NCBI GenBank assembly: GCA_020632075.1
Contig: JACKGH010000001.1
Coordinates: 195,216 to 259,215 of the forward strand
Source: Candidatus Nomurabacteria bacterium
GTDB lineage: Bacteria > Patescibacteriota > Minisyncoccia > Phycocordibacterales > UBA918
Reading direction: 5' to 3'
DNA length: 64,000 bases
Made by a program: the position numbers and the translations under genes
In this document: positions 8,100 to 26,698 of the stretch, piece by piece
Layout: each line of letters begins with the position of its first letter
How positions within the stretch are numbered: the stretch's first letter is position 1
The notes under the pieces: model-generated
Seen by the model: the letters and a program-made list of their open reading frames with translations, nothing else
What the model was told of the DNA's origin: nothing
Databases searched by the model: none

Positions 8100-9212
8100 A
8101 TGCACAGAGCGTCCAACACGTTCTCAGTGCTCCAAGCAACAGCAGCGATCGTAAGCTTCGCAGTGATCCTTTGGTCATTCGGCCTACCATCATTCCACTT
8201 TGCGGAAGCTGCAAATGTCACTTCGTACAGCGACACACTCTCGACCTCACAGCCGAGCGTTGCCGCAGATCACACTATTGTGTTTACAACCCCTTCAGGT
8301 GTTGCAAACAACAATACAATTACCATTGACCTTTCTTCCTTCAACGGAACAAGTTCTATTACAGCAACCGATATCGCTGTCTCAACAACTTCTGCCTTCA
8401 CCGTAGCCGCAACTTGTGGTGGTGGTGAGCAGATTGGAGCTGCATTCGGTACCAATGACAGTACACTCACACTGACATTGTGTGCTTCTGAAGGCTATAG
8501 TATTCCAGCTAATGGAACAACTACCATTGCAATCGGAGGTACAAATAAACTTGTAAACCCAACTGCTGGGTCATATCAGATCCCGCTTACTGCAGGAGCT
8601 TCTGACCTAGGAGAAACACGGGTTGCTATCGTTGATACAGTTACAGTTACTGCTTCGGTTGATACATACTTCCAGTTCTCAGTAGCTGGAGTAACATCCG
8701 GACAAACCGTAAATGGAACGACGACAGGTGGAGCAACAAGTGCAACTTTGATCCCATTTGGTGAACTGTCCGCTGGTTCAGCCAGTACAGCCGCCCAGGA
8801 TCTTACAGTTGTGACTAACGCTCGAAATGGTTTCACGGTGACAGTGACCTCAGACGGTCAGCTTGATTCTATTACTGGTGCTGACATCGATGGTTTCCGA
8901 AACGGGGGCTACGATGATACGCCACAGGCATGGGAAGCACCAAGTGTGACGATCGGTCAGGAAAATACGTATGGTCACTGGGGTATTACCTCAGACGATA
9001 CGGACATCTTTGCCGCAACTGAGACATACGTTTCAGCATCGACAACAGCAGTGCAGATCTTTACTCACGATAGTCCTGTAGATGGTGTTAATTTCCCATC
9101 AACTGGTACTAGTACGACGCGAGTAGGATACACCGTGCAGGTGAGTGCGTTGCAGGAAGCTGCAACGGACTATGAAGCTACGCTGACATACGTAGCAACA
9201 CCAGTATTCTAA
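8100..9212 (+). CDS. Secreted surface protein with divergent C-terminal WxL-like domain (aromatic positions F/Y instead of W), CscB-like
   Basis: N-terminal TM/signal, T/S-rich. The C-terminal ~190 aa align with the C-terminus of the giant protein at 15855: IPFGELSAGSASTAAQDLTVVTNARNGFTVTVTSDGQL against IGFGSVSIGTSQEAAQHLTINTNATEGYQLFLFVDQQL, and terminal ATLTYVATPVF against AAISYLVTPVF. Confidence 0.6.
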   Translation: MHRASNTFSVLQATAAIVSFAVILWSFGLPSFHFAEAANVTSYSDTLSTSQPSVAADHTIVFTTPSGVANNNTITIDLSSFNGTSSITATDIAVSTTSAFTVAATCGGGEQIGAAFGTNDSTLTLTLCASEGYSIPANGTTTIAIGGTNKLVNPTAGSYQIPLTAGASDLGETRVAIVDTVTVTASVDTYFQFSVAGVTSGQTVNGTTTGGATSATLIPFGELSAGSASTAAQDLTVVTNARNGFTVTVTSDGQLDSITGADIDGFRNGGYDDTPQAWEAPSVTIGQENTYGHWGITSDDTDIFAATETYVSASTTAVQIFTHDSPVDGVNFPSTGTSTTRVGYTVQVSALQEAATDYEATLTYVATPVF

Positions 9213-9243: not shown

Positions 9244-9282
9244 GCAAAAAACCCTATCTCCCACCACGAGTGGGGTTTTTTG
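9244..9282 (+). terminator. Rho-independent terminator (CCCAC / GTGGG, then GTTTTTTG), with an A-run upstream
   Basis: AAAAAACCCTATCTCCCACCACGAGTGGGGTTTTTTG. Confidence 0.7.
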
Positions 9283-13023: not shown

Positions 13024-13770
13024 ATGGATCGAATCTTTCAACTTCTAAAAAGAGCACTTACACTAAAGTCGAGAAGTCGGACAGTTCGTTTCATGTTTCC
13101 TGCAGTGATCTCGTTTGCAGCAGTGCTCGGCGCTGCTGTGATCACAGCTGATGACGTTTCGTATGTACGCCTTGAAAGCTCGTCTGCGACCGTTGAAGCA
13201 GGACAACCATTTTCAATTGCGGTGTATGCCTACGCACACGTTCCAGTAAATGCAGTCGATATCAAACTTAAGTTTGACGGCAATGCGGTCGAGGTTACTG
13301 GTGTCGATACAGGACAGTCTGTTATCACGATCTGGACAGAGGAACCTGTCATCGAAAAGAACAGCGTAACACTCCGTGGTGGTACGTATAGAAAGGGGTT
13401 TGTGTCTGAGCACTTGATCGCCACGATAAACCTGCGCTCACTGCAGACAGGACAAAAAAGTTTCTCTGTTTCCGATGTGGTACTGCTTGCTGGTGATGGA
13501 GCAGGTACTCCAGTAAGCATAGGTCAGACAACTGATTCATCAGTCAGCTTATTCGTCTACGATGAAAATACTAGTCCTGAGAGTATAGGTGTTAACGTCG
13601 AAGTTAGAATTCTTACCGACATTGACGGAAACGGAAAAGTTGACCTGCGAGATATTAGTGCCTTTATGTCCGCATGGCATGATAAAAAGGTGCTTTATGA
13701 CTTCAACGGCGATGGTAGAATGACGTTCAGAGATTTCTCGATCATTCTGGCTGATTTCTTCTTCAAATAG
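13024..13770 (+). CDS. Secreted protein combining an N-terminal cohesin-like domain with a C-terminal dockerin-like domain
   Basis: Cohesin-like VRLESSSATVEAGQPFSIAVYAYAHVPVNAVDIKLKFDGNAVEVTGVD...VITIWTEEPV. Dockerin pair DIDGNGKVDLRDISAFMSAW and DFNGDGRMTFRDFSIILADF. Confidence 0.65.
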   Translation: MDRIFQLLKRALTLKSRSRTVRFMFPAVISFAAVLGAAVITADDVSYVRLESSSATVEAGQPFSIAVYAYAHVPVNAVDIKLKFDGNAVEVTGVDTGQSVITIWTEEPVIEKNSVTLRGGTYRKGFVSEHLIATINLRSLQTGQKSFSVSDVVLLAGDGAGTPVSIGQTTDSSVSLFVYDENTSPESIGVNVEVRILTDIDGNGKVDLRDISAFMSAWHDKKVLYDFNGDGRMTFRDFSIILADFFFK

Positions 13771-13853: not shown

Positions 13854-15818
13854 ATGTATAACGTAGAGCTTGAATTATGTGTAGAGCAAATGATTCAAGC
13901 GCCAAGACTGCTACCTAACGGTAAGCGACCAGTTTCGTACATATACGCTGTTGTTTTTAACAGTCGTTTTTCTGTGTTACTTGTTTTTATATTACTTGGA
14001 TCTTTCCTTCTACAACCAATTCATCAAGCATACGCGAATGAGGCAGCTGCAGAACAACAAGTTGAAGAGGTGGCGCCACAACTGCCAGCTGAGGTTGAAG
14101 AGCAACTTCCAGATGCAGGAGACCAAACCAGCGACGAGCCAGAAGTGCTCTCTGACTCTGCACCAAGCTCAGATACAAATGCTGAGAATAGTGACGGTAC
14201 CGACATAGTAATTGACGAAGCAACTGGAGAAGCTGAGGAGCAAGTGTCTACGAATGACACTACTGACGATGTTGCTGAAAGTGACACGGCGGAACCTGCT
14301 AACGTAGCCAAAAGTACTACGACAGACACTTCAACCCAAGATCCTATCGACACAGGAACGACGCCAACATCGACCAACACTGAAACAGAGATTGTTGACG
14401 ACCAGGCAAGCTCTACCGATGCTGAACAAACTGACACTAACGACCAAGGATCCACCTCGGGCGGGTCATCAGGAGGCAGCAGCAATACTGGAGGCACAAC
14501 AAATACAGCAAGCACCAGTACAGCGAGCTCAACTGAGACCACAACCGACAGCGCCAGTACTTCAACCGTGACAACAACGGCATCGAGCACTGATGATGGC
14601 ACGTCTGAGGAAGATCAAGCTAGTGATGAAATTCTGCCTGATACCACTGAAGATCCTTCAGAACCAGATGATCTTATCGACGCAGACACTATCGAGGATG
14701 GTGTTACTGGCCTTGTTGATAATGTAGTCAACGAAGTAGTGAATCTTACCCGACAGCTTGTGACGGAGGAAAACTACTACCAATTCAGTAAGCAGTCTTG
14801 TGTTGCTGTAGGTGATAGTACGTACCACTGTACAAGCAAGGAACAAACTGCGCTTGATCCTGATAGCGCGGTGTATGCAGAACAAGACGCTGACGGTGAT
14901 ATGGAGATCTACCTACGTACTTCAAAAGGTGACATCAAGCAGCTCACCGATAATGATTTTGATGATACATCACCAGATGTTGATCTCGCTACTATGCGCG
15001 TGGTATGGCAGCGTATCATTGATGGACGATACCAGATCATTTCGTACGACCTAGAGACACGTGAAGAAACTCAGCTGACATTCTCTCGCAACAACAGCAT
15101 GGAACCAAAAGTATCGAAGGAGGGCATTGTATGGCAAGCCTGGGATGGTACTGACTGGGAGATCATGTATTTTGACGGGAAATTCACTGATCAGATCACT
15201 CAGAATGACGGAATTCAGGATGTTACTCCAGTTATAGAAGATGGGTACATCCTATGGAGTGTACTTGGTGGTGAGAAGTCTGAGGCGAGAGTGTACTCAC
15301 TAGAAAGCGGCGAACGAATGACGATCTCTGGTCACGAAGGTGGTACGGTTGCAAATCCTCGCTTTGTGCTTGTGTACGACACTAAGTTTGAGAACGGTGA
15401 CGTGGTCACGGTTGGTTTCGACCCGGTAACTGGTTTGGCACAACCTGTCTCTGCCAAACCTGCAGAGTTGCCATTTGATATTCCAGAACCTGATCCAGTG
15501 GGGGAGATCCGTGCTTTGATCCAGAATAAGTCTACCCAGAAAGATAAAGACGTAGTGACCGTGCCAGTGGCTGACAATGATGTGGATCTTGACCTTGCAA
15601 GTAGCACGGCGACTTCTTCAGGAGCCCTTGTGATTGACACACAGCCGGACCTAGATCCAGATCTGGCAAGTACGACACTGCCAGAAATTCCAGAATTTGA
15701 ACTCACAGAGTATGACCTAGTGATCACCAAGAATGCAAGTTCAACTAACTCGATACTAAATACTGGATATGAGCTCGGCACCACTTCGATTAAGATCAGC
15801 ACTAGTACACAGGAATAA
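13854..15818 (+). CDS. Secreted protein: signal-anchor, ~230-aa highly acidic D/E/T/S-rich disordered region, PD40 (TolB-like) beta-propeller repeats
   Basis: Repeats of the type DGDMEIYLRTSKGDIKQLTDNDFDDTSPDV, GRYQIISYDLETREETQLTF and DWEIMYFDGKFTDQITQNDGIQDVTPVI match WD40-like/PD40 blades. Confidence 0.6.
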   Translation: MYNVELELCVEQMIQAPRLLPNGKRPVSYIYAVVFNSRFSVLLVFILLGSFLLQPIHQAYANEAAAEQQVEEVAPQLPAEVEEQLPDAGDQTSDEPEVLSDSAPSSDTNAENSDGTDIVIDEATGEAEEQVSTNDTTDDVAESDTAEPANVAKSTTTDTSTQDPIDTGTTPTSTNTETEIVDDQASSTDAEQTDTNDQGSTSGGSSGGSSNTGGTTNTASTSTASSTETTTDSASTSTVTTTASSTDDGTSEEDQASDEILPDTTEDPSEPDDLIDADTIEDGVTGLVDNVVNEVVNLTRQLVTEENYYQFSKQSCVAVGDSTYHCTSKEQTALDPDSAVYAEQDADGDMEIYLRTSKGDIKQLTDNDFDDTSPDVDLATMRVVWQRIIDGRYQIISYDLETREETQLTFSRNNSMEPKVSKEGIVWQAWDGTDWEIMYFDGKFTDQITQNDGIQDVTPVIEDGYILWSVLGGEKSEARVYSLESGERMTISGHEGGTVANPRFVLVYDTKFENGDVVTVGFDPVTGLAQPVSAKPAELPFDIPEPDPVGEIRALIQNKSTQKDKDVVTVPVADNDVDLDLASSTATSSGALVIDTQPDLDPDLASTTLPEIPEFELTEYDLVITKNASSTNSILNTGYELGTTSIKISTSTQE

Positions 15819-15854: not shown

Positions 15855-18800
15855 ATGCTTCAGTGGGAAACCTTGAGGGTTTATTTTGTGAACCAAAAAA
15901 GTAGATTTGGTCTGTATAGAAGAGCGGCCTCTTTTCTTTTAGTACTGCTCGTGTTTTTTTCTAATGTTACTAGCCCGCTTCTTCAGCTGCTACCGGGCAT
16001 TATCCGTGACCATGCGCCGATTGGACCCAGCACCGCATTTGCAGCTACAGGAGACTTCGCCACTTTCCGCGAAAGTACCGCTGGTGACACAATTTCACAA
16101 GGCGGACCCCCAGTTGCTATCAAATGGGATACTACGATTAGCTCTAATGCTAACCTTGGTCTACAAGCGAATACTTCGGATATAGATCTAGCAGATGGTG
16201 GCAAATACTTTGTTACCTACAGTGCATGGGCTTATGAAGGCACCGCTGGTGGTACTAATCGACGTACAGTAGATACATATCTTACACTCAATAACGTTCC
16301 GCTTGCATACGGTCGCGGTTCTGGCTACATCCGGGACAATGAGGGTGATACAAGCGCGTATGCGAACGGAGGCGCTATTATTAGTGCTGCTGCCGGAGAT
16401 GACCTCGAAGCCTACATTAAGCGAAATGATGGTAATGCAACCGCTGGCACTCAGTTGCAACCTGGTGTAAATGGCATATCGGTGCTTAAACTTCCTGAAT
16501 CTGCTGATTATTTGCGTGCGCGAATTGCAGCCACGAGCTCAAGTATCAGTGCTAACACCAGCTTTACCGATGTCGTGTGGGATACTGCTGATGAGGTCGA
16601 TACAGGCTCATTTGCTTTTACGCCGTCGTCTGGAAACATCACTATGAAAGGTGCAGCAGGTACTAACTTTATGATCACTGCTAATGTTGGTCTCTACGTA
16701 TCGGGCGGAGGAACCACTCGTCAAAATTATGAAATGCGACTGACACTTGACGGAGTTGAAGTGCCTGGTAGTCGCGTGACCACATACCTGCGCGGTTCAG
16801 ACAATACCTGGTATGGGACGCTCGCATACATGGGAATCATCAGCAAGACTTCAGCCTCGGATCAGACCCTCAATATTGAGATCAGGCGTGAATCCACTGG
16901 TGGCGCGACCACAGTGATACAGGGCGACAAAGCAGGTCTTGCGATCATGGCCTTGCCAGACATTGCTGAAGTGGTACGTCTTACTGATAACTCGGGTACT
17001 CAACAGCCAGCCCTAACTTCAAAGCCTCTTTATTTTGACACGAATGATGAGGTTGATGCTTCGGCTTTTGGACACAGCACTTCAGCCAACCAAGACAGAG
17101 TTACTATAAGTGCTGCTGGAGACTATCTTTTCTTTGCAACTGCCTACTCAACTACATCAAATTCTGATAATAATCGAGAACCTTTCAGAATAGACTGGAA
17201 TAAAACAGGCTCGCAGCAAAATTACGGTGGTTTTGGGGCGTTTAACCGCAGCAACAGTACCTTTAGTGGCGGTGCTTCTGGTGCCATATTGCTGAATGGA
17301 CTTGGTACGTCTGACTACGTACACCTCAAATATATAGATGAGACAACAAGTGCACCAGAAAACGGTACTTTTAATGCTGGGAGGGTAGCGCTCCAAGGTA
17401 TCGCACTCAATGATAACTTTTTTGGTCTAGACGTTGAGGTTAGCGCTAGCGGGACACAGACATCAGCTGTCGACATCCCAACCAGCAATACCTACGTCGG
17501 TGGACAATTTGTAGTCACGGAAAATTCTGGATCACGCAATGTCACGAATGTCACTATCACTGAGTCAGGTACCGTTGATGGGGCAAATGGTCTTGATAAC
17601 ATCAAACTGTACTATGACCTCGATACTTCGAGTCCGTATGACTGTGCTAGTGAATCCTACGGCGGAGGAGAGTCGCAGTTTGGTAGTACTGATACAAACG
17701 GCTTCTCGGGCGCAGACGGCAGTTCTAGCTTTTCTGATTCTGTAGCGATTACAACCACTAAAGCACTGTGTCTCTATCCTGTCATGGACATTGTTGCTGC
17801 CGCAACTGATGGTGATACTATAGAACTCTCAATCGATAATCCTACTACTGATGTAGTAGTAACTGGTGGTGCCTCAATCGGCCCCGCAACAACACAGGCG
17901 ATTAGTGGAGCGACGACTCTCCGGAGTGCTGATCTGACGCAGACACACTACCACTGGCGTAACGATGATGGCGACGAGACAGATACAGTTGCAAATGCCA
18001 CACCGACAGTCAAGAACACCACTTCAAGCGGTTTTGGCGCCAGTACTGCTGGTAATGACCCTGTGCTCACTGTTCCGGCAAACGCTGTAGAGGGTGATTA
18101 TATGGTTGTTATTTTTACCACCGATGATAACAACCCAACACAAACCCCGACACCCCCGAGTAGTGAAACCTGGACACTCCAAGAGTCTGGATTGATGCCA
18201 GTTGACGGTACAGCTGCCGTCTCACCTCCGGCCGCTTGGATCTATACGAAGTTTGTTTCAGCTGATGATGAGGCCAATGCGGGGACCAAGACCTATACCT
18301 GGCAAGACAGTGCTGGCAGCGAGGAACAGGCTGCGCAACTGATTTTGCTCAATAATGTGAAAGGCTGGGGTGAATTTAACACTAATCTACTCACTGGTAA
18401 TCAAACCAGCATCAATGCTCCAAGCGTGACCACCACTGAAACAAATGAGATCGTATTTCACGCTGCATTTAAAGATAACAATGCGACTTTTACAGCACTT
18501 CCGACAGGTTCTACAGTCGTGAACAGCGGTTGGGGTCCAGCTAGTGACGCTGGTGCAGCACTTGGAATCGTATATGCAGTATACCCAACAGTAGGAGCAA
18601 CCGGCGCTAAGACATTTAGTTTAGCTAGCAATGAAGCAAATGGTTTCACTTTTTCATTGCAGCCGACCAATGCAGGGGGAGCAACGTCCATCGAAGGTGC
18701 AGAGGACACTCCAGCTATTGGATTCGCTAACGGCACAGTGAGAAGGCTCCGCTTTGAGGTTTCTGCCGAAGGATCCACGTCATCACTTCCAACCGTGTTT

Positions 18801-21800
18801 CAGCTTGAGTACGCAACTAAAACTGCAGCGTGTAACGTACTTTCAGAGTGGGTTGATGTTGGAGTGTCCGACGGTGGAGATTGGGATGTCGTTGATTCTA
18901 CACATGTCACCAACGGCGCGAACACAACCAACATCACCTCAGCCGCTTACGGTGCTCTAACTGACGAAAACAGTAGTTTCCTCTCGTCAAATGGCGGTGT
19001 ACGAGACACTTCCTCACAAACAGGTTCGCTTATCCTCTCGAGTACGCAGTTTGTTGAGCTGGAGTTTGCGATCGAGCCGACCAGTGGCGCACCACAAGGT
19101 AACACCTACTGTTTTAGGTTGAGTGATGATGGAACACCACTACCCCGATATGACGTGTATGCAGAAGGAACCATTTCGGCTGATGTCGATGTGAGTGCAA
19201 GCGGAACACAAGCTACGAGTGTGAGTTTTAACTCGGCTAATAATTACCTTGGTGGGGTCTTTGTTATTGAACGACCAGGAACAAATCGAACAGTTACAGA
19301 CATCACCATCACTGAATCAGGAACAGTTGATGGCCAGGAGGGACTTGATAACATTGAACTTTGGTACGACCTTGATACTACAGCGCCGTATGACTGTACC
19401 GGAGAGTCTTACGGTGGGGGAGAAACACAATTTGGATCGACTGACACGAATGGATTCTCTGGTTCGGACGGAACATCTCAATTTACTTCTGCTGGGGTAA
19501 ATATAAACGAAACAACCAGTATGTGTGTGTATGTGGTATACGACACCACTGCCAGTTCATCAAACGGAGAAACTATCGATATCAAGATTGCTAGTCCATC
19601 TTCTGATGTTGTGGTGACAGGTTCATCAGTTGGCCCAAGCACAGCAGTCTCTCCGACCGGTAGTACTACTATCGCCGGGCCAATACTGACACAGATGCAC
19701 TACCACTGGCGGAATGATGACGGTACTGAATCTGGGGCAACCTCAGTCAGCGGTGGGGTGGAAGATACACCGATCAGTGCAGTGCCTAAAGAGTCGATCA
19801 GACGTTTGCGACTTGAAGTGTCAAACGAAGGGACTGTTAATGCCTTGGCGACCAACTTTCGCTTGGAGTATGGTACGAAAATCACAACATGCGATGCTGT
19901 CGTGACCTGGACAGATGTTGGGGAAGTCGCTGGAGCCTGGGACATGGCCTTAAGTTCAAATATTGCTGATGGCGACACAAGCGATATTGCGCTTGGCGCT
20001 AATGGTGCGCTGACCAATGAGAATACGACTTTCGATGGAGTGGGGGCGTTGCGTGAATCTACCTCTGAGTCTGGTGCGATCACATTGACCACAACTGAAT
20101 TCACTGAACTCGAGTATTCTATCGAAGCAACGGTTGATTCAGGGTATGATACGACCTACTGTTTTAGGGTCACTGATTCTGGTACTGAGCTGCAAGGGTA
20201 TGATGTGTACGCAGAACTGACTACACGCGAGAAGCAGGATTTTTACATTCAACGGGGAGTCACTTTTGTTTCTGGCACAAGCACCACTTTAGTAGCTGGG
20301 ACTGATTACATTGCACCTTCTGCAGCAGATGCAGCATTCATCAGAATTACAAACACACAGCTTACTGGTGCGGGCCGTAGCGCCGGAAACGCGACCCAAA
20401 ATGCTGATGATGTTACAGCGTATATTGAAAACCCAGACAATATTTTAAACAACATTGTTATTGCTCGTCCTACTGGTGCTTCTGATGACACGCGTGTGGC
20501 CTGGGAAATCATCGAGTATATTGGCATTGCTGGTGGCGATAATGAAATGATCGTGCGTGATCATGGTGTTGTTTCATTGGGTACTACAGATCTGACTGCT
20601 ACTGGGGCAACTGTTTCAGGAGTTTCAAACGACAGTGATATTGTCGTGTTTGTCACTGGTCAGCTCAATACGGATACGGGCACTAATTACAGTACGGGGT
20701 TGTACACTTCTGAATGGTCTAGTTCTACTGATGAACCTGTCTTCACTCGTGGTGTTAGTGGTGACACAGGTGAGGTTAGTTATGCGGTTGTTGAATTCAC
20801 TGGTGATAACTGGAAAGTGCAGCGAATTGAACATAATTACGCGGCTGGTGGTGTAACTGAGGTCGAGTCTGTGTCAGCAGTAAACAGTCTTTCACGAGCG
20901 TTCGTCCATGCGCAAAAACGCACCTCTGAACACGGGCTCGATGAAACAGGTCATGAAGTATGGCTTTCTAGTATTGGATACCTTTCCTTTGCACTAGAAT
21001 CTGGCGTAACCAGTCCTACTAATCACTATAGTGTTGCTTGGGTAATTGAAAATACCCAAAGCAGTAATGGTGCGATGAGTGTTCAGAGATCGAATGGAGT
21101 TCTGGCACGAAATACACCTTGTGGTGGAGTAGAGCCGTGTACCGAAGTTGTTTCGATCACGGCCGTCAATGAGTCTAATGCTTCACCGTGGGTGACCAAC
21201 AGGAGTTCGGGATCAGGTACGTTGTTTCCTCGTCCAATTGTCGGAGTGCGACTGGTTAACTCGGGAACAGAGATCGAGTACTGGCGTTCCGACACTGGAC
21301 AGCCGCAAACGTACCGTACCGAGATTGTCACATGGCCAGTAGCTGAAACTGCGGTGCGACAAAATTACTATCGATTTTATGTTGATAACGACAGTCTCAC
21401 ACCAACTGATGCCTGGCCTGTGGGTGCTGAAGATCTGGGTGAGAATACCACCTTGACTGCTGCAGATGATCCGCTTGGTGAAGGAGAACGTGTGCGCATC
21501 CGAATGTCTCTAAGAATCAGTAATGCTACCCTACCGGAATTAACCAAAACTTTTAAATTACAGTATGGGCTTCAGGAAACAACCTGCTCAGCAATTAGCG
21601 CCTGGACTGATGTAGGTACGCCAGGAAGCGGAACGATCTGGCGTGGTTACAATGGAACAGAAGTTGACGGCACAGCTATTGCGACCAGCACACCTGCAGC
21701 TGGCACACTACTTCTTACTCCGTCTGATGTAGCTGGTACCTATGAGGAGCAAAATGATTCTGCAGTTAATCCTTACAAAGTGGATATTGGGGAGGATGTT

Positions 21801-22994
21801 GAGTACGACTGGGTAGTGCAGCACAACGGTGCAGCACAACGATCAGACTATTGTTTTAGAGTTGTGAATAGTGATGACAGTGAAATCGCTGGATACATCA
21901 ATTACCCAGTGATTCGCACAACAGGCTACACACCAATTGTAGCGAACTGGCGATGGTACGATGACGAAATCAATGTGACACCGTCTAGTCCACTCGATCA
22001 AGAGAATATTGCACCCACAGATATCGCAAATCAAAACACAATAAAACTGAGAGTCACTGCAGCAGAAGTTGAAAATGCAATTGGTACCAACGTCAAGTTT
22101 GCATTGCAGTACTCAGAGTACGCCGATTTCTCTGACGGCGGAACCTTCCTTACAAGCACAAGTTCCTGCGTTGAGAACTCAATCTGGTGTTACGCAGATG
22201 GAGCAGGTGTTGATGGTGATCTTGTTACAAACGCAACTCTGAGTGATGCTGACAGTTGTGTTGGTGGTGTTGGTAGCGGGTGTGGAACCCATAACGAAGC
22301 TGCAACGACTACTAGTACATTCACTCATGGAGCAAGTGCTAATGCTGAGTTTGAGTTCACGCTCAAAAACGCGGGTGCTCGGGTCAATGCAGTGTACTAC
22401 TTTAGATTATACGATGTTTCATTCGACCAGCCTCTTGTCGCTAGTTCATCATATCCATCACTCGTAGTTGAGGGCCCGACACTTGTCTCCACACTTTCGG
22501 GTGTAGATGCTGGAACCGCAATTGCTGGTATTGTGACAGATGCGACCACCACTGCGACAGCTATTGGTTTCGGGAGTGTGTCTATAGGCACTTCACAAGA
22601 GGCAGCTCAACACCTCACCATCAACACAAACGCTACAGAAGGCTACCAGCTCTTTCTCTTTGTTGATCAACAGCTTGAAAATGCATACGGTGACGAGATC
22701 AAACCTATCACAGGCACAAACGCAGCACCGGTAAGCTGGGCAACTGGATGTGTGGCAACAGCAGTTAGTTGCTTTGGCTACCATACAACTGATGCGGTCC
22801 TAGAAAATGCATCTGCCCGATTCGCACCGATCGATTCATACGCGGCGCTCAGTACCGGTGCGGCAGAAATTATGTACAGTTCTATCCCAAGCGACGACAC
22901 TCATAGTATTGTGTATAGAATGTTTGTTTCTCAATACCAACCAGCTGGTGATTACGAAGCTGCTATTAGTTACTTGGTGACTCCTGTTTTTTAG
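15855..22994 (+). CDS. Giant (2379 aa) secreted surface protein with internal repeat modules and a C-terminal divergent WxL-like domain, CscC-like
   Basis: Signal-anchor. Two ~180-aa A modules (DVEVSASGTQ...HYHWRNDDGDETD and DVDVSASGTQ...HYHWRNDDGTESG). Four ~150-aa B modules (RRLRFEVS...FQLEYATKTAACN...WVDVG...YCFRLSDDG and variants). The C-terminal 190 aa are homologous to the C-terminus of the 8100 protein, ending ISYLVTPVF. Confidence 0.8.
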   Translation: MLQWETLRVYFVNQKSRFGLYRRAASFLLVLLVFFSNVTSPLLQLLPGIIRDHAPIGPSTAFAATGDFATFRESTAGDTISQGGPPVAIKWDTTISSNANLGLQANTSDIDLADGGKYFVTYSAWAYEGTAGGTNRRTVDTYLTLNNVPLAYGRGSGYIRDNEGDTSAYANGGAIISAAAGDDLEAYIKRNDGNATAGTQLQPGVNGISVLKLPESADYLRARIAATSSSISANTSFTDVVWDTADEVDTGSFAFTPSSGNITMKGAAGTNFMITANVGLYVSGGGTTRQNYEMRLTLDGVEVPGSRVTTYLRGSDNTWYGTLAYMGIISKTSASDQTLNIEIRRESTGGATTVIQGDKAGLAIMALPDIAEVVRLTDNSGTQQPALTSKPLYFDTNDEVDASAFGHSTSANQDRVTISAAGDYLFFATAYSTTSNSDNNREPFRIDWNKTGSQQNYGGFGAFNRSNSTFSGGASGAILLNGLGTSDYVHLKYIDETTSAPENGTFNAGRVALQGIALNDNFFGLDVEVSASGTQTSAVDIPTSNTYVGGQFVVTENSGSRNVTNVTITESGTVDGANGLDNIKLYYDLDTSSPYDCASESYGGGESQFGSTDTNGFSGADGSSSFSDSVAITTTKALCLYPVMDIVAAATDGDTIELSIDNPTTDVVVTGGASIGPATTQAISGATTLRSADLTQTHYHWRNDDGDETDTVANATPTVKNTTSSGFGASTAGNDPVLTVPANAVEGDYMVVIFTTDDNNPTQTPTPPSSETWTLQESGLMPVDGTAAVSPPAAWIYTKFVSADDEANAGTKTYTWQDSAGSEEQAAQLILLNNVKGWGEFNTNLLTGNQTSINAPSVTTTETNEIVFHAAFKDNNATFTALPTGSTVVNSGWGPASDAGAALGIVYAVYPTVGATGAKTFSLASNEANGFTFSLQPTNAGGATSIEGAEDTPAIGFANGTVRRLRFEVSAEGSTSSLPTVFQLEYATKTAACNVLSEWVDVGVSDGGDWDVVDSTHVTNGANTTNITSAAYGALTDENSSFLSSNGGVRDTSSQTGSLILSSTQFVELEFAIEPTSGAPQGNTYCFRLSDDGTPLPRYDVYAEGTISADVDVSASGTQATSVSFNSANNYLGGVFVIERPGTNRTVTDITITESGTVDGQEGLDNIELWYDLDTTAPYDCTGESYGGGETQFGSTDTNGFSGSDGTSQFTSAGVNINETTSMCVYVVYDTTASSSNGETIDIKIASPSSDVVVTGSSVGPSTAVSPTGSTTIAGPILTQMHYHWRNDDGTESGATSVSGGVEDTPISAVPKESIRRLRLEVSNEGTVNALATNFRLEYGTKITTCDAVVTWTDVGEVAGAWDMALSSNIADGDTSDIALGANGALTNENTTFDGVGALRESTSESGAITLTTTEFTELEYSIEATVDSGYDTTYCFRVTDSGTELQGYDVYAELTTREKQDFYIQRGVTFVSGTSTTLVAGTDYIAPSAADAAFIRITNTQLTGAGRSAGNATQNADDVTAYIENPDNILNNIVIARPTGASDDTRVAWEIIEYIGIAGGDNEMIVRDHGVVSLGTTDLTATGATVSGVSNDSDIVVFVTGQLNTDTGTNYSTGLYTSEWSSSTDEPVFTRGVSGDTGEVSYAVVEFTGDNWKVQRIEHNYAAGGVTEVESVSAVNSLSRAFVHAQKRTSEHGLDETGHEVWLSSIGYLSFALESGVTSPTNHYSVAWVIENTQSSNGAMSVQRSNGVLARNTPCGGVEPCTEVVSITAVNESNASPWVTNRSSGSGTLFPRPIVGVRLVNSGTEIEYWRSDTGQPQTYRTEIVTWPVAETAVRQNYYRFYVDNDSLTPTDAWPVGAEDLGENTTLTAADDPLGEGERVRIRMSLRISNATLPELTKTFKLQYGLQETTCSAISAWTDVGTPGSGTIWRGYNGTEVDGTAIATSTPAAGTLLLTPSDVAGTYEEQNDSAVNPYKVDIGEDVEYDWVVQHNGAAQRSDYCFRVVNSDDSEIAGYINYPVIRTTGYTPIVANWRWYDDEINVTPSSPLDQENIAPTDIANQNTIKLRVTAAEVENAIGTNVKFALQYSEYADFSDGGTFLTSTSSCVENSIWCYADGAGVDGDLVTNATLSDADSCVGGVGSGCGTHNEAATTTSTFTHGASANAEFEFTLKNAGARVNAVYYFRLYDVSFDQPLVASSSYPSLVVEGPTLVSTLSGVDAGTAIAGIVTDATTTATAIGFGSVSIGTSQEAAQHLTINTNATEGYQLFLFVDQQLENAYGDEIKPITGTNAAPVSWATGCVATAVSCFGYHTTDAVLENASARFAPIDSYAALSTGAAEIMYSSIPSDDTHSIVYRMFVSQYQPAGDYEAAISYLVTPVF

Positions 22995-22999
22995 GTGGT

Positions 23000-24019
23000 A
23001 TGATAGAGAACATGAAAAACTTCTTGTTTACAGCGCTCTTGTTTGCACTTATGCTGCCAGCTTCATCTGTGTTTGCAGGAGAATACACGGTCCGGCCATT
23101 TTTACTCGATCACACGGCAGTGCCGCGCGACGTGATCACTGATACCGTACTGCTCACCAATGATAGTCCGATCCGGAAATATGTCATTTTCGCAACAGTA
23201 AATGAGATCTCCGTTGACAAAGAAGGCGAGATAAAGGAGTTCGTCTCGCCAGTCATGACTGATCGTTCAGTCACACTTCCGAGTTGGATCGAGGTAAAAC
23301 GCAGTCGTATCGAGATACCGCCAGGGGAACAGATCGAAGTGCCCGTCACTTTCAGGATCAGCCCAAATGCTGAGCCAGGAACATACCATGCATTCATTGG
23401 ATTTGTTCCAGCTCCAAATCGACCGACTGCCGAACGAATCGCCATGGACGGTGAAGCAGACGGAGTAGTGGTCAAGATAACCATCTCTGATCAGCGGGAG
23501 GAAAGTATGCGTATCAGCAGCTTTGAGGTGGATCGGTTTGTTACTGGCGAAAATAATCGATCGATCGATATCACGCTTGAAAACAAAGGGGATATCGCCT
23601 CAGCACCAACAGGGGAGATCATCTTTTACGACTCACGCGGCGTTGAGATCACTTCAGTTGAGGTGAACCAGGACGGAGGCACTGTTGTTGAGCCGGGTGG
23701 CACAGCAACCATTCATAGTCAAGTGCCACTTGGAGAGGGACTTGGTCGTTTCAAAGCGAACCTCACACTCGACTACGGAGAAAAGCAAACAGCTTCACTG
23801 CATGACAGCACCATATTTTACATAGTGCCACTACACCTCCTCATTATTGGACTGATCTTTGTTATCTTTGGTTCATTGCTAGTAACCTTCCTCTTCAAGC
23901 GCACTTTCATGAGTGAGGAGTTCCACGACGGGACAGATGAGGTTACAATGTATATCAAAGAAGGCCACGACGCTGATCCACATGAACATGATATCGACCT
24001 TAGTAAGCCAAAAGAATAA
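23000..24019 (+). CDS. DUF916/DUF3324-like cell-surface protein with C-terminal TM anchor (CscA-like paralog)
   Basis: Signal peptide, then WIEVKRSRIEIPPGEQIEVPVTFRISPNAEPGTYHAFIGF and LENKGDIASAPTGEIIFYDSRGVEI, then a C-terminal TM followed by FKRTF. Confidence 0.6.
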   Translation: MIENMKNFLFTALLFALMLPASSVFAGEYTVRPFLLDHTAVPRDVITDTVLLTNDSPIRKYVIFATVNEISVDKEGEIKEFVSPVMTDRSVTLPSWIEVKRSRIEIPPGEQIEVPVTFRISPNAEPGTYHAFIGFVPAPNRPTAERIAMDGEADGVVVKITISDQREESMRISSFEVDRFVTGENNRSIDITLENKGDIASAPTGEIIFYDSRGVEITSVEVNQDGGTVVEPGGTATIHSQVPLGEGLGRFKANLTLDYGEKQTASLHDSTIFYIVPLHLLIIGLIFVIFGSLLVTFLFKRTFMSEEFHDGTDEVTMYIKEGHDADPHEHDIDLSKPKE

Positions 24020-25628
24020 ACGAGGCCTTTTCACTCTTTTTGCCAGCTTCTTCTTATTGGCAGTATTTGGAGTGCCGTCAGCTAGCGCACAAGAAACCGT
24101 ATCGCTCAGTGTCTCTCCGACCATATTTGATATGTCTGCGAATCCTAGCCAGGATTGGCAGAGTAGTATTCGAGTGATCAATTCAAACCCGCAAGAGCTG
24201 CAAGTGTACTTAGATGTTGTGAACTTTGCACCAAGAGGGGAACAGGGCAATGCGCAGTTCTTACCTGTGCTCGATGGAGAAGCACAAGGAAATACGATCG
24301 CCGAATGGATCGAACTCAGCGAAACGGAGCTACTCATCCCACCCGAACAGACAGTCCAGGTGCCGTTTACAGTGCATGTTCCAGAAGACGCTGAGCCAGG
24401 TGGTCATTTTGCTGCCATTCTCGTCGGTACCAAGCCACCCAAAGGCGATAACCGAAGTAATAAAGTAGAAACTTCGCAGATCATCACCTCTCTCATGTTG
24501 CTACGAGTGAGCGGGGACGTTGAAGAAAGTGGAATCATTAGATCATTCCGCCCGACGGAATACCTATTTGATAAGCCGCAGGTTGAGTTTGAGTTGCGAT
24601 TCCAGAACACAGGCAATGTTCACTTGCTGCCCCAGGGTGAGATCCGTATTACGAATATGTGGGGACAAGAGCGCGGAGTAATACCGATCAACCGCGAAAC
24701 CCTTTTTGGAAATGTGTTGCCAGACAGTGTCAGAAAGTTTGATTTTACCTGGACTGGACAGTGGTCGATCGGAGATATTGGTCGCTATTCAGCGGTCGCA
24801 ACGCTTGCGTACGGACAAGAGGGAAGAAAGTTTGCTTCAGCAGAAACTAATTTTTGGGTAGTACCTCTAAAGGCGCTCATGATCGTATTACTCATTGTGA
24901 CGGCGTTTATTGTGATTGTTACCTGGTCCATCAAAGCATACGTGCGCAAAATGCTCTCAATGGCAGGCGTCGCTCCAGAAGGAAGGGTCCGGAGGATACA
25001 AGGTTCACCGCGAAAAGTATCAGTCGTAGCGCCGATCGAGGCGGGCATCCTAGACCTAAGCGATCGCCTAAAGACTTCGGATAGCCTTTCCGATAAACTA
25101 ACATCAGTGCGCGAATTTGTACGAGTAAACCGAACATTCTTTGTTGCAGGTACACTCATGGTAATTGGAGTGGTTCTTATTGTATGGTTCGTGCTACTTG
25201 CCTCAACCCAGGAGCGGTCGTATGAAGTGACCATAGGTACTGGTGAGCATCCAGTCACAATTACTTCTGAGGACGTAGAATATGAAGCGTTGCGCGATAG
25301 TGCCCCCGCACCACTCGGAAACGCTACTACGACAAGTGATTCGCTGCCAACCCTCCGGATAGTCAACCAAAGTAGCATTCCTGGTCTCGCCGCATCACTT
25401 CGAGTCGAGCTAGAGGCTGCGGGATACACAATCGCTGATCTCAGTACTGACCTGAATGCCGACAAAAACAACACTGTCATTGTGTATGCTCCTGAATACG
25501 CAGAGGAAGCACTTGCGCTCAGCCAGCTTATCAATGGCGCGCTCCTCTCGGCTTTTGCTGAGGCATCAGATGCAGACGTCCCAATCACGGTCTATGTCGG
25601 ACGAGATTTCGAAAATGAGGTACAATAG
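23982..25628 (+). CDS. DUF916/DUF3324-like ectodomain, TM, cytoplasmic linker, second TM, C-terminal LytR_C domain. The start is chosen at the internal ATG (MNMISTLV...); the ORF-track start 23913 overlaps the upstream gene
   Basis: Signal peptide RGLFTLFASFFLLAVFGVPSASAQE. Motifs WIELSETELLIPPEQTVQVPFTVHVPEDAEPGGHFAAILVG and FQNTGNVHLLPQGEIRITNMWGQ. C-terminal TLRIVNQSSIPGLAASLRVELEAAGYTIADLSTD...TVIVYAPEYAEEALALSQLING...ITVYVGRDF matches the LytR_C (LCP-associated) domain pattern. Confidence 0.6.
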   Translation: MNMISTLVSQKNKRGLFTLFASFFLLAVFGVPSASAQETVSLSVSPTIFDMSANPSQDWQSSIRVINSNPQELQVYLDVVNFAPRGEQGNAQFLPVLDGEAQGNTIAEWIELSETELLIPPEQTVQVPFTVHVPEDAEPGGHFAAILVGTKPPKGDNRSNKVETSQIITSLMLLRVSGDVEESGIIRSFRPTEYLFDKPQVEFELRFQNTGNVHLLPQGEIRITNMWGQERGVIPINRETLFGNVLPDSVRKFDFTWTGQWSIGDIGRYSAVATLAYGQEGRKFASAETNFWVVPLKALMIVLLIVTAFIVIVTWSIKAYVRKMLSMAGVAPEGRVRRIQGSPRKVSVVAPIEAGILDLSDRLKTSDSLSDKLTSVREFVRVNRTFFVAGTLMVIGVVLIVWFVLLASTQERSYEVTIGTGEHPVTITSEDVEYEALRDSAPAPLGNATTTSDSLPTLRIVNQSSIPGLAASLRVELEAAGYTIADLSTDLNADKNNTVIVYAPEYAEEALALSQLINGALLSAFAEASDADVPITVYVGRDFENEVQ

Positions 25629-26149: not shown

Positions 26150-26698
26150 ATGAAAAAGGACGGGATTGTAACACTAGCAATAATGCTTATCGTTGTCTTA
26201 CTTTTAGCCAGCGCTGTTTGGTACGTCAGTAGTAAAAATAAAACGAGTAAAACAATCCCCACCCCAGCTGAACGATCGCTTTCATCTGCTGGTTATGCTC
26301 CATACACTGATCTAGACGGCAATCAAGTTCTTCTTACTGATTTCTTGGGTCGTACTTTGGTAGTGACTGTTTGGGCAAGCTGGTGTCCTGAATGTCGCAC
26401 TGACCTCACTTTATTTAACAGGATCTCACAAAATTATGATCTTGAAGAGGTAGTCTTTCTGGCAATTAATAGAGCTGAGCCCAAAGCAACAGCGCGTGCG
26501 TTTCTTGATACATTTAAACTGGCAGGGGATGTTATCTATATTTTAGACCCTGATGACCACTTCTACCATTCAACTGATTCATTCTCTATGCCAGAAACAA
26601 TCATTTTCAGCCCTAATGGAAATGAGGTGTATAGAAAAAGAGGTCGAATTAATGCTTCTGAACTGCAAGGAAAATTGCAAGAAAACACTGGAAATTAA
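26150..26698 (+). CDS. TlpA/ResA-like membrane-anchored thiol-disulfide oxidoreductase (thioredoxin fold)
   Basis: N-terminal TM. CxxC active site in VVTVWASWCPECRTDL. Confidence 0.7.
   Translation: MKKDGIVTLAIMLIVVLLLASAVWYVSSKNKTSKTIPTPAERSLSSAGYAPYTDLDGNQVLLTDFLGRTLVVTVWASWCPECRTDLTLFNRISQNYDLEEVVFLAINRAEPKATARAFLDTFKLAGDVIYILDPDDHFYHSTDSFSMPETIIFSPNGNEVYRKRGRINASELQGKLQENTGN

What the first reader, a model, noticed from the sequence alone, without database searches (positions are those of the whole stretch)
15855..22994. Internal architecture of the 2379-aa giant protein: two A modules and four B modules, each B preceded by an aromatic W-R-x-D-D motif
At the protein level, ~nt 17440-17980 and 19185-19735 are near-duplicates (DV[ED]VSASGTQ...ITESGTVDG..GLDNI.L.YDLDT..PYDC..ESYGGGE.QFGSTDTNGFSG.DG...F).

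A second module type recurs four times (~18700-19180, 19760-20225, 21490-21930, 22040-22480): R.R...S/V...F.L[EQ]Y......C......W.DVG ... YCFR. Each copy is introduced by HYHWRNDDG, HYHWRNDDG, NYYRFYVDND or ANWRWYDDE.

I do not recognise these as a named domain. They could be a new carbohydrate-binding or adhesin module family. The nucleotide-level repeats also make the gene assembly-collapse prone.
Basis: seen in the sequence. Interest (0 to 1): 0.55.

Follow-up and report, generated by a model that had tools for sequence, protein, structure and literature searches.

The report
Giant modular surface protein, Kaiserbacteria
The 2379-residue gene product is a real, secreted, many-domain cell-surface protein of a tiny symbiotic (CPR) bacterium; its repeated "A" and "B" modules are two unnamed beta-sandwich domain families, and B is widespread in metagenomes and probably serves as a stalk and display scaffold for host attachment.

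Summary
The repeats are real. A1 and A2 share 55-60% identity (E 1e-54). B1, B2 and B3 share 28-43%, and B4 is found by a profile.

- The "W-R-x-D-D" motif is the first beta strand of B itself, not a separate lead-in.
- In B1 that strand lies about 225 residues upstream of the rest of the domain, because another domain is nested inside.
- A third repeat type (N, three copies), a 370-residue orphan domain (M) and a strictly C-terminal domain were missed.
- The DNA copies are only about 70% identical, so assembly collapse is not a concern. About 50 orthologues from independent assemblies keep the same architecture.

AlphaFold2 models of A and B are confident beta sandwiches (pLDDT 95-97). They have no Pfam or NCBIfam hit and no close PDB match. 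B occurs in more than 5,600 protein clusters, with up to 21 tandem copies. Paired cysteines point to extracellular disulfides.

The gene sits in a conserved Paceibacteria cluster. Two membrane-anchored genes follow it, one weakly like the WxL-interacting protein.

Best reading: a C-terminally docked, fibrillar adhesin-like protein. B1 is a hot spot where lineage-specific domains, some lectin-type, are inserted.

This is a new variant of a known kind, of moderate interest.

The parts
15855..22994 (+). Giant gene, 2379 aa. It is 100% identical to the NCBI MAG protein KC877_00695 (Candidatus Kaiserbacteria), whose annotated start is 32 aa too short.
   Evidence: The start 'MLQWETL' is conserved in orthologues.
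15855..16034 (+). N-terminal leader (aa 1-60). It has a basic region, then a hydrophobic segment (SFLLVLLVFF), a spacer, and a conserved A-x-A / ATGDF junction. This is a signal peptide or an N-terminal anchor.
   Evidence: Read from the sequence and from an orthologue comparison. No signal-peptide predictor was run.
16035..16619 (+). N1 module (aa ~61-255), the first of three N-type repeats.
   Evidence: Self-BLAST: aa 113-249 ~ 267-401. hhalign N1 vs N2: probability 100%. Also.
16620..17084 (+). N2 module (aa 256-410).
17085..17417 (+). N3 module (aa 411-521; labelled 'preA' during the work), a shorter copy of the N type.
   Evidence: hhalign N1 vs preA 99.5%, N2 vs preA 98.3%.
17418..17945 (+). 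A1 module (aa 522-697).
   Evidence: Two invariant Cys.
17946..17990 (+). B1, first beta strand only (aa 698-712, HYHWRNDDGDETDTV).
   Evidence: The family HMM matches positions 2-33 here and positions 13-183 again at aa 937-1110.
17991..18662 (+). Ins: a ~224-aa domain nested inside B1 (aa 713-936). It is an orphan, shared only with the three closest orthologues.
   Evidence: No Pfam or PDB hit.
18663..19184 (+). B1, remainder (aa 937-1110).
19170..19697 (+). A2 module (aa 1106-1281). This is the copy that was modelled.
   Evidence: AF2 pLDDT 95.1, pTM 0.90. Foldseek result.
19686..20240 (+). B2 module (aa 1278-1462). This is the copy that was modelled.
   Evidence: AF2 pLDDT 96.6, pTM 0.92, ten strands. 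Foldseek results.
20241..21350 (+). M domain (aa 1463-1832), a 370-aa orphan with 20 invariant residues.
   Evidence: No PDB or Pfam hit.
21351..21929 (+). B3 module (aa 1833-2025), which starts NYYRFYVDND.
21930..22490 (+). B4 module (aa 2026-2212), which starts ANWRWYDDE. It is a divergent subtype with four Cys and YYFR.
22491..22991 (+). C-terminal domain (aa 2213-2379), ending ...DYEAAISYLVTPVF. This is the putative docking/anchor domain.
   Evidence: 88 of 88 copies end exactly at the protein C-terminus. No Pfam or PDB hit.
8100..9212 (+). Small (370-aa) secreted protein carrying the same C-terminal domain (...DYEATLTYVATPVF).
   Evidence: 71.5 bits; E 1e-21
23000..24019 (+). Conserved downstream gene. 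Its 339-aa product has a signal peptide, beta-rich domains and a C-terminal transmembrane helix. It resembles WxLIP in layout only.
   Evidence: Pfam gave only weak CARDB/fn3_5 hints.
23913..25628 (+). Conserved downstream gene. Its 571-aa product has a sub-threshold WxLIP_PGBD (DUF916) match, transmembrane segments and a LytR_C domain. The true start is probably near 23982.
   Evidence: (4 of 5 orthologues repeat the hit)

Best explanation
**What it is.** The gene encodes a secreted, disulfide-stabilised, multi-domain cell-surface protein of a Kaiserbacteria/Paceibacteria (CPR) bacterium. Its domain order is: leader - N x3 - A - B(with nested insert) - A - B - M - B - B - C-terminal domain.

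**The modules.** A (~175 aa) and B (~185 aa) are two unrelated beta-sandwich module families that have no name. The 'W-R-x-D-D' motif is the first strand of B.

**How it most likely works (inferred).**
- The C-terminal domain holds the protein at the cell surface by docking to the two membrane-anchored proteins encoded just downstream. One of these weakly resembles the WxL-interacting protein.
- The A and B sandwiches form an extended stalk, as in fibrillar adhesins.
- The loops of B1, and perhaps the distal N repeats, carry the variable binding surface. In this lineage that surface includes an orphan 224-aa insert. In other lineages the insert is an H-type lectin or a LamG-type domain.
- The protein therefore probably recognises and attaches to a partner surface: the host cell of the episymbiont, or a glycan.

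**Shown:** the modules, their folds, the nesting, conservation of architecture and synteny, and the cysteine pairing.
**Inferred:** surface docking through the C-terminal domain, the stalk role, and the adhesion function.
For: **Repeats and their boundaries**
-.

**Folds**
- Confident beta-sandwich models: B pLDDT 96.6, A pLDDT 95.1.

**Extracytoplasmic location**
- 142 of 143 A copies have exactly two Cys.
- B copies have 2 Cys (430 copies), 0 (183) or 4 (88); odd counts are rare. C70 and C158 co-occur with odds ratio 23, p 3e-66.
- The leader sequence is conserved.

**Stalk-like behaviour of B**
- 5,622 cluster representatives match at E<=1e-3.
- Tandem arrays reach 13-21 copies.
- B-B-Cterm is a recurrent terminal cassette.

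**C-terminal domain as anchor**
- It ends at the protein C-terminus in 88 of 88 copies.
- It is shared with a small secreted protein in the window.
- 55 of 72 gene ends are followed at once by both downstream genes. Synteny holds in 59 of 78 loci.
- The 571-aa partner gives a WxLIP_PGBD hit at E 7e-5. The hit is reproduced at the same profile positions in 4 of 5 orthologues.
- This layout matches published WxL clusters: a small protein and a large protein sharing a C-terminal domain, plus a transmembrane-anchored DUF916 protein (PMC9772566, PMC10599100).

**B1 as insertion hot spot**
- Inserts occur at about four different positions in different lineages, and 24 of 48 orthologues have none. 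B2, B3 and B4 keep constant length.
- Inserts include H_lectin (24.6 bits against a cut-off of 24) and Laminin_G_3 (63.8 bits).

**Context**
- All relatives come from Patescibacteria MAGs.
- Giant surface proteins of CPR bacteria have been proposed to mediate host attachment (PMC8080830).
Against: - No binding activity or ligand is known, and neither A nor B shows a recognisable sugar-binding site.
- The C-terminal domain has no detectable sequence similarity to the WxL domain: 30 members scanned, no hit at E<=1. A profile search returned only unannotated Paceibacteria proteins.
- The WxLIP_PGBD match stays below Pfam's cut-off (18-23 bits against 27.3).
- The orthologues are fairly conserved (47-68% identity) and syntenic. 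That would also fit a housekeeping envelope or S-layer-type structural role rather than a variable adhesin.
Confidence: 0.55

Rival explanations
1. It is a structural envelope or S-layer-type component. On this reading the protein is a conserved building block of the Paceibacteria cell envelope, tethered by the LytR_C/WxLIP-like partners, and is not mainly a host- or ligand-binding adhesin.
For: - The architecture is conserved.
- Identity is 47-68% across many genera.
- Synteny with membrane and cell-wall-associated partners is tight.
- The partner carries a LytR_C domain.
Against: - B1 carries lineage-specific inserted domains of lectin type, which looks like diversification of a binding surface.
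- Some genomes hold two paralogues (L013/L025 and L022/L071).
- No S-layer homology or known lattice-forming domain was found.
Confidence: 0.2
2. It is a scaffoldin-like hub of a cohesin-dockerin surface complex. The A modules (cohesin-like sandwiches) would bind the dockerin-bearing small proteins encoded nearby. The giant protein would then organise a multi-protein, possibly polymer-processing, complex, with M as the functional core.
For: - Dockerin_1 hits occur in window ORFs 13024-13770 and 6694-7800.
- Foldseek places cohesins among the top matches of A (E 1e-4 to 1e-3).
- One B copy hits Pfam Cohesin at E 9e-4.
- Upstream genes are syntenic in 27-43 loci.
Against: - TM-scores of A to cohesins are low (0.31-0.38), and the best match is a sialidase N-terminal domain instead.
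- No Pfam Cohesin hit was found for A.
- By eye, the dockerin proteins and their neighbours carry their own cohesin-like N-terminal segments, which are more obvious partners.
- M has no similarity to any enzyme.
Confidence: 0.1
3. The repeat count is an assembly artefact (collapse or expansion).
For: None found. The only basis is the presence of internal protein-level repeats.
Against: - The DNA copies are 70% identical over 192 nt at best, and no tandem repeats were found.
- The identical module order appears in about 50 orthologues from independent assemblies.
- A1 and A2 are positionally orthologous in 30 of 47 orthologues.
- An identical protein is deposited from a 1.0-Mb contig.
Confidence: 0.02

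Closest known systems
WxL / Csc cell-surface gene clusters of Lactobacillales (small WxL protein, large WxL protein, WxLIP = DUF916-DUF3324-TM)
   Same: - A large multi-domain beta-rich secreted protein has a last domain that is always C-terminal, and a small secreted protein in the same region carries the same domain.
- Signal-peptide-plus-TM-helix proteins are encoded directly beside the large gene. One gives a reproducible weak WxLIP_PGBD (DUF916) match.
- Evidence: PMC9772566 and PMC10599100.
   Different: - The C-terminal domain has no detectable similarity to Pfam WxL and lacks the two W-x-L motifs. It ends in Y-[ILV]-x-[TV]-P-x-F instead.
- The partner carries an extra LytR_C domain.
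- The host is a CPR bacterium, not a Firmicute.
- The small protein lies 6.6 kb upstream, not adjacent.
- Homology is unproven.
Fibrillar adhesins (stalk of tandem beta-sandwich repeats + binding domain + anchor); general concept, cited from my own knowledge
   Same: - Tandemly repeated beta-sandwich modules: B reaches 13-21 copies in relatives.
- The protein is secreted, giant, and carries lectin-type accessory domains in orthologues.
   Different: - The stalk modules are not any of the catalogued stalk families (Ig-like, Big, Fn3, CARDB and so on); only sub-threshold CARDB noise was seen.
- In this protein the repeats are few and interleaved (A-B-A-B-M-B-B) rather than a long homogeneous array.
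- There is no LPXTG or other known anchor.
N-terminal beta-sandwich (BNR_assoc_N, CBM-like) domain of Bacteroides GH33 sialidases, and the GH123 N-terminal domain
   Same: - These are the best structural matches of module A: 9db6_A at TM 0.56, E 4e-5; also 4bbw, 6mrv and 5fqe.
- One A copy gives a PF14873 hit at E 0.034.
   Different: - Sequence identity is 10-13% and the TM-score is modest.
- There is no significant sequence-profile match.
- A has an invariant Cys pair and is not attached to any glycosidase.
Galactose-binding-domain-like / F5/8 type C modules (CBM32; Pfam PF22633)
   Same: - The motif R-L-R...F-x-L-[EQ]-Y...W of B aligns with the CBM32 of C. perfringens NagH (2w1q), but at E 0.42.
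- A protein with 13 B copies sums to 37 bits on PF22633.
   Different: - No single B copy reaches significance.
- Foldseek lists no CBM32 or discoidin structure among the top 50 matches (TM<=0.40).
- B is larger (185 aa, 10 strands, a long ordered loop region).

Membership tests
Any named Pfam-A / NCBIfam domain (Ig, Fn3, CBM, CARDB, cohesin...) for modules A and B | A match to the family profile above its curated cut-off. | tested here: not met
   - The whole protein has 0 families at E<=1.
- Of 44 B copies, the best hits are CARDB at E 0.011 (5 copies) and Cohesin at E 9e-4 (1 copy), all below cut-off.
- The 36 A copies give nothing recurrent.
Galactose-binding-domain-like (CBM32 / F5_F8_type_C) for B | Significant sequence-profile similarity. 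| tested here: inconclusive
   - The PDB profile search gives 2w1q (CBM32) at E 0.42.
- PF22633 reaches 37 bits only as a sum over 13 copies in P0057, with no single significant stretch.
Galactose-binding-domain-like (CBM32 / F5_F8_type_C) for B | Jelly-roll fold superposable on known members. | tested here: not met
BNR_assoc_N / sialidase N-terminal CBM-like domain for A | Structural and sequence similarity to the family. | tested here: inconclusive
   - Foldseek's best match is 9db6_A: TM 0.56, E 4e-5, 10% identity.
- Pfam PF14873 hits 1 of 36 copies at E 0.034.
- The PDB sequence profile found nothing.
Cohesin for A | Cohesin fold and profile match. | tested here: not met
   Cohesins appear in the Foldseek list (E 1e-4), but with TM 0.31-0.38. 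No Pfam Cohesin hit was found for any A copy.
WxL surface-protein cluster | A C-terminal WxL domain (Pfam WxL, two W-x-L motifs). | tested here: not met
   - 30 diverse copies of the C-terminal domain gave no WxL hit at E<=1.
- The profile search returned no WxL-annotated protein.
- The PDB profile found nothing.
WxL surface-protein cluster | The shared domain is always the last domain, and is present in both a small and a large secreted protein of the locus. | tested here: met
   88 of 88 copies end at the C-terminus. The giant protein and ORF 8100-9212 share the domain.
WxL surface-protein cluster | An adjacent DUF916(-DUF3324)-TM protein (WxLIP). | tested here: inconclusive
   - WxLIP_PGBD scores 23.4 bits (cut-off 27.3), covering profile positions 17-117 of 121, in ORF 23913-25628.
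- The hit is repeated in 4 of 5 orthologues at 18-22 bits.
- No WxLIP_HBD hit was found.
- No match was found to the solved WxLIP 9i1y by sequence.
- Adjacency holds in 55 of 72 loci.
WxL surface-protein cluster | Binding of the C-terminal domain to peptidoglycan or to WxLIP. | not testable with these tools
   This needs complex prediction or biochemistry.
Fibrillar adhesin | A tandem stalk-domain array. | tested here: met
   B occurs as 2-21 consecutive copies in 143 of 143 top family members. In this protein, B3 and B4 are in tandem, and the A-B unit is duplicated.
Fibrillar adhesin | A recognised adhesive (ligand-binding) domain. | tested here: inconclusive
   - None was found in the window protein.
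- Orthologues carry H_lectin or Laminin_G_3 inserts in B1.
- The window's insert is an orphan.
Fibrillar adhesin | A known cell-surface anchor (LPXTG, SLH, LysM, TM...). | tested here: not met
   No such Pfam or NCBIfam hit was found. Only the novel C-terminal domain is present.

The most novel reading that the evidence does not exclude
The locus is the CPR (Paceibacteria) counterpart of the Firmicute WxL/Csc surface complex.
- A previously unrecognised C-terminal docking domain (ending Y-x-x-[TV]-P-x-F) would attach giant and small secreted proteins to a WxLIP-like, LytR_C-bearing membrane protein.
- The loops of module B1 would serve as a cassette site where lectin-type domains are swapped between lineages.
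- That swapping would set which host cells these obligate episymbionts can attach to.
Probability: 0.2. Interest if true: 0.7.

Novelty: new variant of a known kind. Interest (0 to 1): 0.4.

Why it matters
CPR/Patescibacteria make up a large share of bacterial diversity. They are thought to live attached to host cells, yet how Paceibacteria attach is essentially unknown.

This gene and its conserved neighbours offer a concrete candidate for an attachment apparatus. They also define several domain families missing from Pfam:
- B, found in more than 5,600 protein clusters
- A
- N
- M
- the C-terminal domain

The variable lectin-type inserts in B1 give a testable handle on host or glycan specificity.

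On the practical side, naming these modules would annotate thousands of 'hypothetical' giant proteins. The result also shows that the repeat structure is genuine and not an assembly problem.

Tried and rejected
**Methods that failed or returned nothing**
- Whole-protein self-BLAST returned only the identity hit. It was replaced by BLAST of 150-aa pieces.
- The B-profile search in the search for homologous proteins returned only 29 short, unnamed fragments.
The whole protein was used instead.
- The promoter/terminator scan gave counts no higher than the shuffled controls.

**Ideas tested and rejected**
- The idea that the pre-A segment is a B remnant, suggested by BLAST 458-600 ~ 1030-1184, was rejected. 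hhalign shows it is a third N repeat, with B probability 2%.
- A and B are not related to each other (probability 1.5%).
- WxL homology of the C-terminal domain was tested three ways, all negative.
- The downstream proteins show no sequence match to the solved WxLIP.
- M, Ins and the N region show no PDB or Pfam relatives.
- The window's insert is not related to the P0009-type insert.
- Assembly collapse was rejected.
Full report
**1. The gene and its source**

Window 15855..22994 (+) is one uninterrupted ORF of 2379 codons. An identical protein is deposited as a hypothetical protein (KC877_00695) of a Candidatus Kaiserbacteria MAG, on a 1.0-Mb contig. The deposited version starts 32 residues later. 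Orthologues, however, begin with the same MLQWETL... peptide, so the ATG at 15855 is the likely start.

The N-terminus has a basic stretch, a hydrophobic segment, and a conserved A-x-A/ATGDF junction. This is a secretion leader by inspection; no predictor was run.

The gene is packed tightly between other + strand genes, with gaps of 36 and 5 nt. No terminator-like site lies on the + strand between 13854 and about 26700. The promoter/terminator scan as a whole found no more sites than its shuffled controls.

**2. Check of the observation**

BLAST of 150-residue pieces against the whole protein gave these matches:

| Pair | Identity | E-value |
|---|---|---|
| A1 (aa 526-709) vs A2 (1110-1293) | 55-60% | 3e-54 |
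| B1 (934-1112) vs B2 (1294-1462) | 43% | 2e-30 |
| B1 or B2 vs B3 (1847-2020) | 28-31% | 1e-8 to 3e-10 |

An HMM of B1-B3 finds B4 (aa ~2094-2204) at iE 3.5e-6. A family-level HMM finds it at 6e-49.

- *The motif belongs to B.* It is the first beta strand of the domain, at residues 2-11 of the AlphaFold2 model, with block pLDDT 98. It is conserved across 744 B copies as Q-x-x-[YFW]-[RH]-[WF]-[YR]-x-D-[DN]-[GD].
- *B1 is split.* The B HMM matches positions 2-33 at aa 694-726 and positions 13-183 at aa 937-1110, so a ~224-residue domain is nested after strand 1.
- *B4 is a divergent subtype.* It has YYFR, four cysteines, and no C...W.DVG.
- *The DNA repeats are weak.* The best match is 70% over 192 nt and 84% over 38 nt, and there are no tandem repeats.

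**3. What else is in the protein**

Profile-profile comparison shows that aa ~61-255, 256-410 and 411-521 are three copies of a third module type, N (hhalign probability 98-100%). A and B are unrelated to each other (1.5%).

Between B2 and B3 lies M (aa 1463-1832). It is a 370-residue domain with 20 invariant, mostly polar or aromatic residues and no relative in PDB or Pfam.

The last 167 residues form a domain ending ...DYEAAISYLVTPVF. In 88 of 88 occurrences it ends exactly at the protein C-terminus.

The full architecture is: leader - N-N-N - A - B(Ins) - A - B - M - B - B - Cterm.

**4. Conservation and the artefact question**

About 50 proteins of 2100-2450 aa (47-68% identity) share the same module order. 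All confirmed genomic loci come from Patescibacteria MAGs: Kaiser-, Nomura-, Pace-, Lloyd-, Azam- and Harrisonbacteria, and Minisyncoccia. A few bins carry doubtful labels.

In 30 of 47 orthologues, including all 18 of the closest, the first A is closer to the window's A1 and the second A is closer to A2. The duplication is therefore old. Together with the ~70% DNA identity, this rules out assembly collapse or expansion for practical purposes.

**5. Folds of A and B**

AlphaFold2 was run with alignments of 44 B copies and 36 A copies. Both models are very confident:

| Module | pLDDT | pTM | Secondary structure |
|---|---|---|---|
| B2 | 96.6 | 0.92 | ten strands, plus a long ordered loop region at residues ~66-121 |
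| A2 | 95.1 | 0.90 | all-beta, with two short helices |

Foldseek against PDB:
- For B there was no hit at E<=1e-3 and TM<=0.40. The matches were generic sandwiches: GH66 and GH123 accessory domains, cohesins, RhoGDI/PDE-delta, a CLIPPER adhesin domain, and WxLIP.
- For A the best match was the N-terminal CBM-like domain of Bacteroides sialidases (9db6_A, TM 0.56, E 4e-5). Next came GH123 N-domains, cohesins, the diphtheria-toxin R domain and TTHA1873.
- BFVD gave nothing for B.

Sequence profiles against PDB:
- B gave a non-significant CBM32 hit (2w1q, E 0.42) over the R-L-R...F-x-L-E-Y...W segment.
- A gave nothing.

Pfam and NCBIfam give no hit for the whole protein, and only scattered sub-threshold hits for single copies. 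One 13-copy relative sums to 37 bits on PF22633, a galactose-binding-like family, without any single significant stretch.

**6. B is a large, unannotated family**

An exhaustive profile search of 1.84 billion cluster representatives found:
- 5,622 proteins at E<=1e-3
- 3,196 proteins at E<=1e-10

Copy number reaches 21 per protein.

Among the best 143 proteins, B always occurs in two or more copies. It is often in pure tandem arrays, and B-B-Cterm is a frequent terminal cassette. A, M and N recombine with it in various orders.

The family reaches beyond CPR. A Chloroflexota-labelled protein has 13 copies and a pilin-type N-terminal methylation motif. One member lies on a 4.5-Mb contig.

**7. 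Evidence for an extracytoplasmic location**

- 142 of 143 A copies have exactly two cysteines.
- B copies have two (430), none (183) or four (88); odd counts are rare.
- The two conserved B cysteines (HMM positions 70 and 158, the latter being the C of YCFR) co-occur with odds ratio 23, p 3e-66.

This is the signature of disulfide-bonded secreted modules. A Redoxin/thioredoxin-like gene lies at the end of the cluster (26150-26698).

**8. B1 as an insertion hot spot**

In 24 of 48 orthologues B1 is uninterrupted, with an inter-A distance of 177-181 residues. The others carry inserts of 200-350 residues after HMM positions ~20 (the window's lineage), ~55-66, ~137-140 or ~165. B2, B3 and B4 keep constant length.

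| Insert type | Pfam result |
|---|---|
| ~138-type | H-type lectin domain, 24.6 bits (cut-off 24) |
| ~165-type | Laminin_G_3 63.8 bits, plus DUF2341 |
| Window's insert | orphan |
| ~55-type | orphan |

The window's insert and the ~55-type insert are unrelated to each other.

Some of the longer 'inserts' may include partial extra B copies, because their HMM ranges overlap. This was not resolved.

**9. Genomic context**

Homologues of the two downstream genes follow the C-terminal-domain gene end at once in 55 of 72 cases with enough flanking DNA. Synteny overall holds in 59 of 78 loci, and the four upstream genes are conserved in 27-43 loci.

- ORF 23913-25628 (571 aa) has a signal-like N-terminus, a WxLIP_PGBD (DUF916) match at E 7e-5 (23.4 bits, cut-off 27.3) covering nearly the whole profile, transmembrane segments, and a LytR_C domain. 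Four of five orthologues repeat the sub-threshold hit at the same positions.
- ORF 23000-24019 (339 aa) has a signal peptide, beta-rich domains and a C-terminal transmembrane helix.
- ORF 8100-9212 (370 aa) ends in the same C-terminal domain as the giant protein.

This layout parallels the WxL clusters of Lactobacillales: a small protein and a large protein sharing a strictly C-terminal domain, plus a membrane-anchored DUF916-type partner (PMC9772566 and PMC10599100).

The C-terminal domain itself shows no sequence similarity to WxL, so this is an analogy with only a weak hint of homology.

Upstream genes carry dockerin and Ig-like domains.

**10. Interpretation**

Most likely (about 0.55) this is a C-terminally docked, extended, adhesin-like surface protein. 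A and B would act as stalk and scaffold modules, and B1 would display lineage-specific binding domains. This fits the general proposal that giant CPR surface proteins mediate host attachment (PMC8080830).

Rivals:
- A structural envelope component (0.2).
- A cohesin-dockerin scaffoldin-like hub (0.1).
- An assembly artefact (0.02).

**11. Verdict**

This is a new variant of a known kind (modular beta-sandwich surface proteins) and is of moderate interest. Its main value lies in domain annotation and in a testable CPR attachment locus.

Noticed in passing
window 15855-15950: The public annotation of this protein (KC877_00695, 2347 aa) starts 32 codons downstream of the ATG at 15855. Orthologues share the longer MLQWETL... 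N-terminus, so the deposited start is probably too short and clips the leader.
   Followed up: partly
window 8100-9212: A 370-aa secreted protein ends with the same ~167-aa C-terminal domain as the giant protein (...DYEATLTYVATPVF). It is followed by the only convincing terminator-like hairpin of the region (9259-9275).
   Followed up: partly
window 20241-21350 (aa 1463-1832 of the giant protein): The M domain is a 370-residue orphan with 20 invariant residues (R, E, N, W, Q among them) and no PDB or Pfam relative.
   Followed up: partly
orthologues P0025, P0023, P0013 (inside module B1): Different lineages carry different nested domains in B1: an H-type lectin, or Laminin_G_3 plus DUF2341. 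Half of the orthologues have no insert.
   Followed up: partly
window 26150-26698: A Redoxin/AhpC-TSA/thioredoxin-like protein with a hydrophobic N-terminus closes the gene cluster. It is a possible extracytoplasmic thiol-disulfide oxidoreductase for the cysteine-pair modules.
   Followed up: no
window 6694-7800, 9473-12323, 13024-13770: These neighbouring surface-protein genes carry Dockerin_1 (two genes), Big_13/Big_6 Ig-like domains and, by eye, cohesin-like N-terminal segments. This suggests a cohesin-dockerin type assembly around the giant gene.
   Followed up: no
window 13854-15818: This conserved upstream neighbour (654 aa) has a long acidic, T/S/D/E-rich low-complexity first half. Its second half is conserved, with faint beta-propeller/TolB-like hits. 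It is syntenic in 43 loci.
   Followed up: no
window 23913-24019: The mechanical ORF 23913-25628 (GTG start) overlaps the end of ORF 23000-24019 by 107 nt. An in-frame ATG near 23982 (MNMISTL...) just before the signal-like segment is the more likely start.
   Followed up: no
proteins P0057 and P0122 (B-family members outside the window): B modules also occur outside CPR bins. A Chloroflexota-labelled protein has 13 tandem copies and a type IV pilin-like N-terminal methylation motif. Another member lies on a 4.5-Mb contig.
   Followed up: partly
loci L002, L004, L028, L029, L054 and others: Several GTDB records that encode clear orthologues are titled Saccharibacteria, Acidimicrobiales, Gammaproteobacteria or Azotimanducaceae. 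These are probably generic or wrong bin labels, or contaminant contigs, rather than true occurrences in those taxa.
   Followed up: no
loci L013/L025 and L022/L071: Two genomes (contigs CAYGTV010000001.1 and DFRJ01000002.1) each hold two paralogous copies of the giant gene. One has the N-terminal N repeats matched; the other matches from about aa 483 onward.
   Followed up: no
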